Source of the DNA: Podarcis filfolensis
Lineage: Eukaryota
DNA: 64,000 nucleotides
NCBI GenBank assembly: GCA_964270895.1
Contig: OZ185436.1
Strand: one strand, 5' to 3'
Position numbers: made by a program. This document shows, piece by piece, positions 53,801-56,800 of this stretch (the first letter of the stretch is position 1; every line of letters starts with the position of its first letter).

Positions 53801-56800
53801 CGTCAGCTGCAGGTCTTACATTAACATTTGTTGTTTAAAGTTTTTTTTCCCTGCAAATGTTTCACCTATTGGATAAAAAGGTTTATTGCTTGGGTTACAT
53901 ATTAGTGGAAGGACTTATGTCTGTGTGATGGAATTTCCTCTCTCCTCAGCCCCGGTCCCCCCAAATCTGCTCCAGAGGCTTGGGGAACGTAAGGGTAAAC
54001 AACAGAGAGAGGAAGTCCTGTTGTACAGGCAGAAGTCATTACACTAATGGCATGACCTTGTAGGATACATCACTTTATGTATCTATCATGGGCTGGATTC
54101 AATTAAACCGGTGTGCTAACAGTAGCTAGTGTAAAGACTCCCACTAGCAGAATGGGGCTTTCTCCCCATTCCCTTGTCCTCCTGCTGTGCACCCCCAATA
54201 CTTCCCCCACATCCACTCTATGGCATTGGGGAAAAACCCAGAACAGCATGTGAGGGGAAGAGTAGGGAGATTGTTCCACCTGGGAAGCAGAAATGCTTGC
54301 ATTGAAGAAACTATCTTAATAGCATGACATTGCATCCTGCCCCATATTTTTAATCTGTCCTTCCTCAAAGGAACTCAGGACAGCATACGTGGCTACCTTA
54401 TCCCCATTTCATCCTAGCTACAAACCTTTCGGTAGGTTAGGCTGAGAAATAAGGACTGGCCTTTAGCTTTACAACTGTGCATGTGCAGGGATTGTAACCT
54501 AAGTCACTTCTGTCTAATGCCCGTTGGACATTGTTGCAAGTTGTAGGATAGCAGGCAGTGAAAAGTGAGTGGATATAGCAGCGAAGTCATTCCATGCTGC
54601 AGGTGTTGTTGTTTTTTTTAAAAAAATAATTTTTATTAACCAACCAATCAAATCACATTAGTTCCAAATTACAAAACTGAATTTTAAATTTTTGTTGGGG
54701 GTACCCATGCTTCGAGCTCAGAAAGGGATCCAATCATCTCTATTGCTGCTGCCTTGATGTTCACAGTTCTGTCCAAATAATGTTCACAGTTCTGTCCATT
54801 CCTCTCTTTGTTGTTTTCCTCATCTCTTCTTGTTGTTATCGTATATTTTTCCTTTCATTGTGACCTCTGATAGTCTCCACAAGCGAGTTGAAAACAAGCG
54901 TTATTATAGTCCTGTGTGGATTTTTCCATTCATCCAAGAGTCATATTCAGACAGCAGACGCATTTCAGCACTTCCATAGAAAACAATCTTAATGTCTGCT
55001 CATTAATCTTCGCAGGCCTGTCACTCCCTTCTCGATCTTCTCAGGGGGTTCTGCCAGGTCAGACACAGAGTCCAATATAATAACAAAGCCATGGCTTCCT
55101 CCCCCTCTTGATCGTCAATCCTGCAACAAAGCCTGCCTGTCATGGCGAATCTCTTTATAACTGCGTCATTCCAAAAGCCTTTCATTCCTTTCCAGATCTC
55201 CACAAGCCAAACCTTTGGTTAGTAATTCATTTCCACACAGTTTCTTAATCATCCCGCTTATAATCAATTGTTGCAACGGTTCTTCTTGGGGGGGATTGTT
55301 AGGTAATCACATAGAGAAAAAAAGAAAAGTCCCCCCCCCCTTTCCGTCCCGTTCTGACATACCGACTTCTTCTTGATATATTTTCCTGTTGAATCCAGCC
55401 CGTCGCTCAACTTCACAGAGGTCACTTCAATTAGCAGTCTAAACTCCCGTTCTTCACTCGAAACATGTGCATTTGCTGCTCTCTAATTGTTTATTTTGAG
55501 CTCCTGCAGCCAGGTCGCGCAATCAGAGACGGCGTCGGGAGAGCCAGAAACCCACACGAGTGCTGTGCGCCTAATGCCCTCACCCCCTTCTTCTTTCGAA
55601 CTCGGGGGTGATTTATCGGCAACTGCAGGCGAAGGCAGTGTTTCCCCCATTCCCTGGGGAAACAAGGGAGGCTACATACTCCCATAATAGCCTCTTAATT
55701 ACCTCGTGTGAGCCGGAGAGATGGTATTGTCGGCCATCTTCCAATGCGCCCCTAGTGGCCCCCCATGCTGCAGGTGTTGTTAATGCTACTGCTGAAATTG
55801 TTTAGCAGTTGAGGGAAGCTGCAAAGGAAGTAAAAGCCTTAACAGCCAGATCCTAAGCATGCTTACTTGGAAGGAGATTCCACTTGATTCAGTGGGATTT
55901 GCTTTAAGGAAAAGTGTGCCTAGACTGGAATTCTAATTACACACATGAGAACATGCTTAGGACTGACCTATGCAAATTGAAGCCTTATTAGCATAAGGGG
56001 CTAAAAAAGTCCTTGTGCCAAAACTCACTATTTAAATTTATTCAGATTAAATGAAATTCTGTTTTTAGCTCCTGCATCATATACAGAAAACACTGTAATA
56101 ACTGCAAAATGCTAAAATATCCTCGGAAGCATTCGCTGAGGAGGTCTAATAGACTCCAATGTGTTTGGAGGGCAGTATTTAAAATGGCATATTTAAGACT
56201 CCTTAAATCTTGTGCCTGTCAGCTTTTGGTCTGTTCATTTAACCAATGGAAGGATATAATGAAGAAAGCAGAGACCCAGCTTAGAGAATATGCCTGAAGA
56301 GAGCAGATTGAAAGGGGACATAAATCACATATATTGTAGCTATGCGTCAATAAAAGAGCCATTCTGAGTTTTTGGAGAAAGTCAAAACATGTCTTGAGCC
56401 TTGCCTCCATTGAATTGGTGTGGTTTAATGTGTTGCGGTTTTTGTGGCCAACGTGATATGTTCAGGAGCCCATTTGCATGTTGGTGGATATGAAATAACA
56501 TTCTGGTGCAGAACTAAAGGGAACTCTTAAAGTTTTTCTACCTGAACATATTTTAAGATTTAGCAAAATTTGTCAAAGTAGTTTTGTAGCAAATGCAAAG
56601 AAACCAAGCTAGCTGCAAAGCAAGCAGTTTATGAATGTTTAAAATTCTAATTGTTTGGCAAACCTATACATCGCTTTTTAAGTATTTAATCATCCTAATT
56701 TGTATTTTAAGATTGTGTACACTCCCATTAGGACTGTACTCAAACCAAATCAGTGGTTCATTAGCAGTTGACAAAATAAAATGTCTAGCTAGAATTCCTT

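What the first reader, a model, noticed from the sequence alone, without database searches (positions are those of the whole stretch)
54592..55781. Complete 1.15-kb non-coding retroposon with L1 signatures: candidate undescribed non-autonomous L1 partner family
Seen in sequence: a perfect 19-bp TSD (54592-54610 = 55763-55781), an intact GGGG-initiated CpG-rich 5' end, AATAAA (54632-54637, minus strand) about 12 nt before an A8 tail, and no ORF over 64 aa. The pre-insertion site reads TT/AACA on the element strand. Established: TT/AAAA cleavage, variable TSDs and A-tails mark L1 target-primed reverse transcription, and internally deleted non-autonomous LINE derivatives are known (e.g. RIME from ingi). 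Inference: the promoter end and tail lie inside one TSD, so a ~1.15-kb RNA was probably retrotransposed as a unit, in trans, rather than being a 5'-truncated L1. It lacks ORF1, unlike HAL1, and has no tRNA/7SL/5S head, unlike a SINE. A weak trace of an ORF2 C-terminal motif (FAMTGRL..RIDDQEGEE, ~55090-55150) suggests an L1 origin. I cannot tell whether the family is already in repeat libraries.
Basis: partly seen in the sequence, partly recalled or inferred. Interest (0 to 1): 0.72.

Follow-up and report, generated by a model that had tools for sequence, protein, structure and literature searches.

The report
L1-type retrocopy of a non-coding RNA
A 1.15-kb stretch is a recent reverse-transcribed copy of a non-coding, polyadenylated RNA pasted in by LINE-1-type machinery, but nothing ties it to LINE-1 itself, and whether it belongs to a repeated family could not be tested.

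Summary
Window 54611-55762 (1152 bp, sense on the minus strand) is flanked by a perfect 19-bp duplication that chance does not explain. It ends in AATAAA, 12 nt, A8, and sits at a TT|AACA site. It has no ORF above 72 codons on the sense strand and no RNA-family or tRNA head. This is a young retrocopy of a whole polyadenylated Pol II transcript, made by L1-type target-primed reverse transcription.

The claimed L1 ancestry is not supported:
- 0 of 24 squamate L1 ORF2 proteins hit the element, while 24 of 24 hit a true 5'-truncated L1 elsewhere in the window.
- An ORF2 C-terminal profile scores 0.3 bits, at shuffle level.
- A HMMER scan of 1.84 billion proteins gave only one hit, which I judge spurious.
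- Published Anolis L1 5'-end consensus motifs are absent.

The 5' end does look like a real transcription start: a G run, a YY1-type motif at +23 and CpG enrichment.

Family status, the core of the claim, could not be tested. No eukaryotic genome or repeat library was available, and the window holds no second copy. My best reading is a one-off retrocopy of a host non-coding transcript (0.5). A repeated L1-dependent family remains open (about 0.3). Interest is modest.

The parts
55763..55781 (.). Target-site duplication, the copy at the element's 5' side (element sense is the minus strand)
   Evidence: Identical 19-mer to 54592-54610. It is the only direct repeat of 16 bp or more of its kind in the window, and 0 of 20 simulations reach 19 bp.
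54611..55762 (-). Retroposed body, 1152 bp, non-coding
   Evidence: Bounded by the duplication. No sense-strand frame exceeds 72 codons. There were no Pfam, PDB or Rfam matches of note and no other copy in the window.
55363..55762 (-). CpG-rich 5' 400 nt (GC 0.52, 20 CpG, observed/expected 0.75)
   Evidence: The window background is 0.205.
55731..55740 (-). YY1-type core AAGATGGCCG at sense positions 23-32
   Evidence: It is the only match to AAGATGGCSG in the window. The mean expectation is 0.06, and 6 of 100 shuffles give one or more. The motif CAAGATGGC is described as the YY1 site at the start of mammalian L1 in PMC5381506.
55699..55737 (-). ATG inside the YY1-type motif, a 12-codon ORF, and a stop lying within AG|GTAA (looks like a 5' splice site)
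   Evidence: This is the only AGGTAA on the element's sense strand, against 34 in the 128 kb of both window strands. Reading it as exon 1 plus a splice donor is inference.
55288..55340 (-). Homopolymer cluster on the sense strand: G10, then T7, then C7
   Evidence: Significance unknown.
54757..54798 (-). Perfect 19-nt tandem duplication, 23-nt period
   Evidence: family D2.
54632..54637 (-). Polyadenylation signal AATAAA, 12 nt before the A run
   Evidence: A second, internal AATAAA lies at sense position 268.
54612..54619 (-). A8 remnant of the poly(A) tail. One extra C (54611) separates it from the duplication.
54592..54610 (.). Target-site duplication, the copy at the element's 3' side

Best explanation
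This is a young, single retrocopy of a complete polyadenylated Pol II transcript of about 1.15 kb with no coding capacity. An L1-type endonuclease and reverse transcriptase, acting in trans, inserted it.

**Mechanism.**
- The enzyme nicked the bottom strand at 5'-TGTT/AA (TT|AACA on the element strand).
- The poly(A) tail primed on the T-rich 3' end, and the whole RNA was copied up to or near its cap.
- The second-strand nick, 19 bp away, produced the duplication.

**Source RNA.**
- It is not an L1. Most likely it is a host transcript from a CpG-island promoter with a YY1-type start.
- It could be a lncRNA. It could also be a first-exon/first-intron transcript ended early at an intronic AATAAA.

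**Shown:** the duplication, tail, signal, target site, lack of ORFs, lack of L1 protein homology and CpG richness.

**Inferred:** the enzyme, the host origin, and that it is a one-off.
For: - **TPRT hallmarks.** A 19-bp duplication beyond chance, AATAAA + 12 nt + A8, and a TT|AACA site.
- **L1 TPRT operates in this genome.** A 5'-truncated L1 at 18330-19234 (minus strand) has its own 12-bp duplication.
- **Youth.** The duplication is 19 of 19. CpG observed/expected is 0.62 overall against 0.205 for the window.
- **Non-coding.**. Pfam gave 0 families for 9 ORFs and for 3 read-through frames. PDB gave one hit at E = 5.9 and otherwise none.
- **Not L1.**
  - 0 of 24 squamate L1 ORF2 proteins hit the body at E <= 10, while 24 of 24 hit the window's L1 fragment at E <= 2.1e-23.
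  - The ORF2 C-terminal profile scores 0.3 bits, against 214.9 for the control. 15 of 300 shuffles reach 0.3.
  - HMMER of frame 1 against 1.84 billion representatives gave 1 hit, a repeat protein matched 6 times over 36 residues, which I judge spurious.
- **Single in the window.** Best blastn hit is 21 nt of A/T run. Best nhmmer E is 15.
- **Host-gene look.** The ATG sits inside the YY1-type motif. Twelve codons follow, then AG|GTAA.
- **Retrocopies form in lizards.** 404 protein-gene retrocopies are listed for Anolis (PMC3136929, Table 1, passages read).
Against: - No parent gene was found or could be sought, so 'host transcript' and 'one-off' are unproven.
- A G-run start followed by a YY1-type site in a CpG-rich leader is also how mammalian L1s begin (PMC5381506). 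An RNA that carries its own promoter is what a propagating family needs.
- CpG observed/expected stays at 0.48 even in the last 752 nt. That is the window's 95th percentile, higher than I would expect for intronic host sequence.
- The profile shuffle result (15 of 300) is not far from the 5% line, so a very faint L1 remnant cannot be excluded.
- The representative search covered only frame 1 of 54904-55671.
- An A8 tail is short for a fresh insertion.
Confidence: 0.5

Rival explanations
1. It is a member of a repeated, L1-dependent, non-coding retroposon family that carries its own Pol II promoter in its first tens of bases. Copies are transcribed from the internal YY1-type start, polyadenylated at their own AATAAA, and mobilised in trans.
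For: - The 5' end has a G run, a YY1-type core at +23 and a CpG-rich leader, as at the start of mammalian L1 (PMC5381506).
- It has its own AATAAA.
- CpG is retained along the whole length, as in active master lineages.
- All TPRT hallmarks are intact.
- There is precedent for non-autonomous partners that share only the promoter-bearing first bases with their LINE: Pr77 in NARTc and RIME/ingi (start of the abstract of PMC1874656, seen in the listing).
Against: - There is no second copy or fragment in the other 62.8 kb. This is weak evidence, because even 1000 copies per 1.5 Gb would give about 0.04 per window.
- 0 of 10 of its ORFs are in the 15-billion-protein collection, and there were no relatives in the representative search. 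Such short ORFs may simply not be held there.
- No paper text holds its 5' 20-mer.
- The exon-1-plus-donor look of the first 64 nt is not expected of a retroposon.
Confidence: 0.3
2. It is an internally deleted L1 that keeps only the 5'UTR and 3'UTR, with at most a few codons of ORF2.
For: - The 5' end is L1-like in style.
- It has AATAAA plus an A tail, as stated for all vertebrate L1s (PMC5381506 section 13).
- The sense strand is purine-rich, A 0.31 and G 0.27, similar to the window's L1 fragment.
Against: - There is no ORF2 homology by any test.
- Neither Anolis L1 5'-end consensus occurs in the element at 3 or fewer mismatches.
- There is no nucleotide similarity to the 3'UTR of the window's own L1.
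- UTR-to-UTR comparison with lacertid L1s was impossible.
Confidence: 0.1
3. It is an orphan 3' transduction, or a 5'-truncated retrocopy of a long 3'UTR. On this reading the 1.15 kb is unique genomic sequence downstream of an L1 or inside a long mRNA, copied only from its 3' part, so the 5' end is an arbitrary truncation point.
For: It is non-coding, single-copy in the window and lacks L1 sequence, yet has a polyadenylation signal and tail. A duplication abutting the 5' end is equally expected for truncated copies.
Against: The truncation point would by coincidence fall at a G run. It would lie 22 nt before the window's only YY1-type motif (expected 0.06) and at the head of a 400-nt CpG-rich stretch.
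Confidence: 0.08
4. It is not a retroposition at all, but a chance repeat, DNA transposon, solo LTR or templated repair insertion.
For: None specific.
Against: - The 19-bp repeat is far beyond chance.
- There are no terminal inverted repeats. The only inverted pair is internal versus flank, at 75% complementarity.
- 19 bp is far longer than the duplications I recall for LTR elements or DNA transposons.
- The A run abuts the duplication after a polyadenylation signal at the standard distance.
Confidence: 0.02

Closest known systems
Processed retrocopies (processed pseudogenes) made by L1 in trans, including retrocopies of non-coding Pol II RNAs
   Same: Flanking duplication of 7-20 bp, poly(A) remnant after AATAAA, a TT|AAAA-like site, a full-length copy from the transcription start, and no means of its own to move. 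Lizards do form retrocopies: 404 are listed for Anolis in PMC3136929.
   Different: No parent gene is known. There is no protein-coding content by which the usual pipelines would find it.
SVA/LAVA-type L1-dependent Pol II non-autonomous retroposons (start of the abstract of PMC3287187, seen; other details recalled)
   Same: Kilobase-sized, non-coding, polyadenylated at its own signal, flanked by L1-type duplications, and mobilised in trans.
   Different: There is no composite SINE/VNTR architecture. Tandem Repeats Finder found nothing in the element, and there is only one 23-nt duplication. Multicopy status is unknown.
HAL1 (half-L1; recalled, not seen in any call beyond the word in search listings)
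   Same: It would be an L1-dependent non-autonomous element without ORF2.
   Different: As I recall it, HAL1 keeps ORF1. Here no frame exceeds 72 codons, and no ORF1 family of Pfam matches.
RIME/ingi and NARTc/L1Tc pairs (start of the abstract of PMC1874656)
   Same: The concept of a short non-autonomous partner that retains the promoter-bearing 5' end of its LINE.
   Different: Those partners demonstrably share sequence with their LINE. Here no shared sequence with any L1 could be shown.
5'-truncated L1 copies, such as the one at window 18330-19234
   Same: Size near 1 kb, flanking duplication, and the same insertion mechanism.
   Different: That copy is hit by 24 of 24 L1 ORF2 proteins and scores 214.9 bits on the profile. 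The element gets 0 of 24 and 0.3 bits.

Membership tests
L1-type TPRT retrocopy | Flanking target-site duplication of variable length (about 7-20 bp) | tested here: met
   Perfect 19-bp duplication, beyond chance.
L1-type TPRT retrocopy | 3' A tail abutting the duplication, preceded by a polyadenylation signal | tested here: met
   AATAAA, 12 nt, A8, one C, then the duplication. The tail is short.
L1-type TPRT retrocopy | Insertion at a TT|AAAA-like endonuclease site | tested here: met
   TT|AACA. The bottom strand reads TGTT/AA, 5 of 6 against TTTT/AA. The consensus is recalled.
Processed pseudogene of a host gene | A parent locus elsewhere, with introns absent from the copy | not testable with these tools
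   No eukaryotic genome was available. There is no protein homology to name a parent.
Non-autonomous retroposon family | Many dispersed copies, each with its own duplication | not testable with these tools
   One copy in 64 kb. No genome or repeat library could be searched.
Non-autonomous retroposon family | Promoter carried inside the transcript | tested here: inconclusive
   YY1-type core at +23 and a CpG-rich leader. There was no functional test.
L1 derivative (deleted or truncated L1) | Sequence homologous to L1 ORF2 | tested here: not met
   0 of 24 proteins by tblastn. Profile score 0.3 bits, reached by 15 of 300 shuffles. No true hit among 1.84 billion representatives.
L1 derivative (deleted or truncated L1) | L1 5' terminus | tested here: not met
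   Neither Anolis consensus (clade 1, clade 2; PMC5381506) is in the element at 3 or fewer mismatches. The lacertid L1 5' ends are unknown to me, so this is a test against Anolis only.
L1 derivative (deleted or truncated L1) | L1 3'UTR homology | tested here: inconclusive
   No similarity to the one L1 3'UTR in the window. Other L1 families were not available as DNA.
HAL1 | Retained ORF1 | tested here: not met
   The longest sense frame is 72 codons. Pfam gave 0 families at E <= 10 in all 3 sense frames. Whether Pfam's ORF1 models detect lizard ORF1 was not checked.
SINE | tRNA-, 7SL- or 5S-derived Pol III head, and length under about 600 bp | tested here: not met
   Rfam gave no such match at E <= 1. 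ARAGORN found 0 genes. The length is 1152 bp.
DNA transposon or solo LTR | Terminal inverted repeats or TG...CA ends, with short fixed duplications | tested here: not met
   No terminal inverted repeat. The ends read GGGG... and ...AAAAC. The duplication is 19 bp.

The most novel reading that the evidence does not exclude
The element is a member, or the founder copy, of an undescribed lacertid retroposon family. It would be a 1.15-kb non-coding Pol II RNA that carries an L1-style G-run/YY1 start inside its own transcript and hijacks L1 proteins in trans. That would make it a reptile counterpart of SVA-type elements, with no SINE, VNTR or ORF1 part.
Probability: 0.3. Interest if true: 0.55.

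Novelty: new member of a known kind. Interest (0 to 1): 0.3.

Why it matters
If it is a one-off, it is a textbook L1-mediated retrocopy. Its use is as a clean marker that L1 machinery has recently acted in trans on a non-L1 RNA in this lizard genome. It is also a reminder that protein-based retrocopy screens miss non-coding sources.

If it proves to be multicopy, it would be one of few Pol II, non-coding, L1-dependent families outside primates. It could then show which minimal features let an RNA compete for L1 proteins, here a YY1-type start, its own polyadenylation signal and an A tail.

Tried and rejected
  - The word-based search among longer proteins gave 5 candidates, none at E <= 1.
  - BLASTP against the window's own L1 ORF2 C-terminus gave E = 1.9.
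- **By-eye alignment.** I saw a colinear series of small matches to L1 C-termini (FW...W., AEM, DW). The profile HMM did not reproduce it: its best alignment lies elsewhere, at -0.5 bits. I dropped it.
- **Representative search.** The single hit, P0003 (2675 aa, E = 2.9e-10), is built of many near-identical repeats and is matched 6 times by one 36-residue stretch. I rejected it as a repeat-inflated chance match. I did not Pfam-scan it.
- **Pfam on the L1 question.** Pfam also finds nothing in the true L1 ORF2 C-terminus at 18784-19149. Its silence on the element says nothing about ORF2 C-terminal ancestry.
- **Exact look-up of element ORFs.** 0 of 10 were found. Short ORFs may not be held in the collection.
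- **Rfam at E <= 1.** It gave two weak rows. One is inside the element: the bacterial sRNA CrcZ at 14.2 bits against a gathering score of 95, which I take as chance. The other is mir-722 at 56846-56904, outside the element.
- **Bacterial promoter/terminator scan.** It is irrelevant to a vertebrate window.
- **Flanks.** The 0.8 kb on each side has no other copy in the window at E < 1e-3. An impression that the flanks are SINE-derived stayed unsupported and is not claimed.
- **Literature.**
  - Searches found no description of such a lizard family.
  - The 5' 20-mer occurs in no held paper.
  - The preprint 10.64898/2026.06.26.734816 had no squamate-specific passage.
  - Supplements were closed. 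The L1 consensus sequences that may be in the supplement of PMC5381506 could have allowed the UTR comparison.
- **Spliced models.** None was built or searched.
- **Origin of the window.** I do not take it for human. The named relatives of its L1 fragment are from Podarcis muralis, Varanus komodoensis and Anolis carolinensis. The species itself was not verified.
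Full report
**1. The observation**

The sequence is as described.
- Positions 54592-54610 and 55763-55781 carry the same 19-mer, and the neighbouring bases differ on both sides.
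- In the whole 64-kb window this is the only non-low-complexity direct repeat of 16 bp or more with 100-3000 bp spacing.
- First-order Markov simulations of the window gave on average 0.05 such 16-mers. None of 20 gave a 19-mer.
- Between the repeats lie 1152 bp (54611-55762), whose sense strand is the minus strand.
- On that strand the element starts GGGGCC directly after the repeat.
- It ends in AATAAA (54637-54632), 12 nt, A8 (54619-54612), one C, and the repeat.
- With the insert and one repeat copy removed, the site on the element strand reads ...GCATT|AACAAC... This is TT|AACA, or TGTT/AA on the nicked strand.
- The longest ATG-started sense ORF is 64 aa. The longest sense stop-to-stop frame is 72 codons.

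**2. What it is not**

*No Pol III head or other known RNA*
- Rfam at E <= 1 gives only a 14-bit chance match to a bacterial sRNA inside the element.
- ARAGORN finds nothing in 53000-57500.

*No recognisable protein remnant*
- Pfam is empty for 9 ORFs and for all three sense frames read through with X at stops.
- The PDB sequence set gives one E = 5.9 row and nothing else.

*No terminal inverted repeats*
- None were found. A 19-bp duplication is not what LTR elements or DNA transposons make. That last point is recalled knowledge.

**3. The L1-ancestry claim**

The window offers an internal control. At 18330-19234 (minus strand) lies a genuine 5'-truncated L1 of similar size. It has a (TA)n tail and its own 12-bp duplication.

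Starting from its ORF2 C-terminus, I collected 24 squamate L1 ORF2 proteins. They comprise 22 named UniRef/NCBI entries from Podarcis muralis, Varanus komodoensis and Anolis carolinensis, plus 2 unnamed ones.

| Test | Element | Window's L1 fragment (control) |
|---|---|---|
| tblastn, 24 L1 ORF2 proteins | 0 of 24 hit the body at E <= 10 | 24 of 24 hit at E <= 2.1e-23, although most are only 32-45% identical to it |
| Profile HMM of the 24 C-termini | 0.3 bits in the best frame | 214.9 bits |

- Two tblastn rows at E about 2 lie in the right flank (55770-55979), not in the element body.
- 15 of 300 dinucleotide shuffles of the element reach 0.3 bits on the profile.
- A HMMER scan of frame 1 (54904-55671, the frame with the three longest sense ORFs and the motif) read 1.84 billion representative proteins. 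It returned one protein, a 2675-aa repeat protein matched six times by the same 36 residues. I take it as spurious.
- That collection does hold lizard L1 ORF2, so its silence means something.
- Limits: frames 0 and 2 were not sent to that large search. A remnant of under about 30 codons would escape all of these tests.
- The two 5'-end consensus motifs published for Anolis L1 clades are absent from the element at 3 or fewer mismatches. They come from PMC5381506, section 9, read in full.
- Lacertid L1 ends may differ from those of Anolis.

**4. What the 5' end does show**

- The only match in the window to AAGATGGCSG sits at sense positions 23-32. The expectation is 0.06, and 6 of 100 shuffles give one or more.
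- From recalled knowledge, the same motif just downstream of the start is also common in CpG-island host promoters.
- The first 400 nt have CpG observed/expected 0.75, against 0.205 for the window. Even the last 752 nt reach 0.48.
- So the copy most likely begins at or near a true transcription start, and it is young.
- With 38 duplicated bases unchanged, divergence since insertion is probably below about 8%. This is my estimate from exp(-38d) = 0.05.
- A detail points towards a host gene. The ATG inside the YY1-type motif opens 12 codons whose stop lies inside AG|GTAA. This is the only such hexamer on the element's sense strand.
- That looks like a first exon followed by its unspliced donor. 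The RNA could therefore be a transcript ended early at an intronic AATAAA. This is inference, and one of several features inspected, so it carries little weight.

**5. Mechanism**

- *Shown:* all structural marks of target-primed reverse transcription by an L1-type endonuclease/reverse transcriptase, and the presence of L1 insertions with duplications in the same window.
- *Inferred:* L1 proteins acted in trans on a capped, polyadenylated Pol II RNA of about 1.15 kb. The A tail annealed at the nicked TGTT-3' end. Copying ran to the 5' end. A second nick 19 bp away gave the duplication.
- The extra C between A8 and the duplication may be a later substitution or a non-A residue in the tail.

**6. 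One-off or family**

- This is the heart of the finding, and it could not be tested.
- The rest of the window has no second copy or fragment. The best blastn match is 21 nt of A/T run, and the best nhmmer E is 15.
- A 64-kb sample says almost nothing about copy number.
- No eukaryotic genome, Dfam or Repbase could be reached.
- None of 10 element ORFs is in the protein collection.
- Retrocopies of host genes do form in lizards: 404 are listed for Anolis in Table 1 of PMC3136929 (passages read).
- I found no description of a lizard L1-dependent non-coding family in five literature searches, nor the element's 5' 20-mer in any held text.

My weights for the alternatives:

| Reading | Weight |
|---|---|
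| One-off retrocopy of a host non-coding transcript | 0.5 |
| Member of a repeated L1-dependent family | 0.3 |
| L1 reduced to its UTRs | 0.1 |
| Orphan transduction or truncated 3'UTR copy | 0.08 |
| Anything else | 0.02 |

**7. Comparison with known kinds**

- It works like a processed retrocopy.
- It fails the defining tests for a SINE (no Pol III head), for HAL1 (no ORF1), and for a truncated or deleted L1 (no ORF2, no Anolis-type L1 terminus).
- It would resemble SVA-type elements or RIME/NARTc-type partners only if it proves to be multicopy.

**8. Verdict**

- The L1-origin clue is not supported.
- The family claim remains open.
- As it stands, this is an ordinary although unusually clean product of a known mechanism.

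Noticed in passing
window 18330-19234 (minus strand), flanks 19235-19246 and 18318-18329: A 5'-truncated L1: ORF2 C-terminus with a CWRC...H...C motif, one in-frame stop and a 3'UTR. It ends in a (TA)n run instead of an A tail and is flanked by a 12-bp duplication, ATATTACATAGA. It is about 90% identical to an unnamed Logan-derived protein, and only 32-45% identical to named Podarcis, Varanus and Anolis L1 ORF2 proteins.
   Followed up: partly
window 63001-63650: A CpG-island-like stretch at the right edge of the window, with GC 0.51-0.61 and CpG observed/expected 0.7-1.06. No convincing ORF was found. It may be a promoter of a gene that runs off the window.
   Followed up: no
window 55699-55737 (minus strand): Inside the element, the ATG of the YY1-type motif opens a 12-codon ORF whose stop lies within AG|GTAATT. 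This looks like a first exon with an unspliced 5' splice site.
   Followed up: partly
window 54757-54798: A perfect 19-nt tandem duplication with a 23-nt period in the element's 3' part. It cannot be told whether it arose in the source or after insertion.
   Followed up: no
window 55288-55340: On the element's sense strand, G10, T7 and C7 runs fall within 53 nt. PMC5381506 mentions poly-C/poly-T tracts in lizard L1 3'UTRs and G-rich stretches in some intergenic spacers. No link was shown.
   Followed up: no
window 9248-9661 (plus strand): A 137-codon open frame whose sequence (…LGVLLD…LDSCN…) reminded me of the C-terminal part of non-L1 LINE reverse transcriptases. Pfam gave no family at E <= 0.1. 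The resemblance is recalled only.
   Followed up: partly
window 5401-5700: One 300-bp window meets the CpG-island thresholds, with GC 0.54 and observed/expected 0.64.
   Followed up: no
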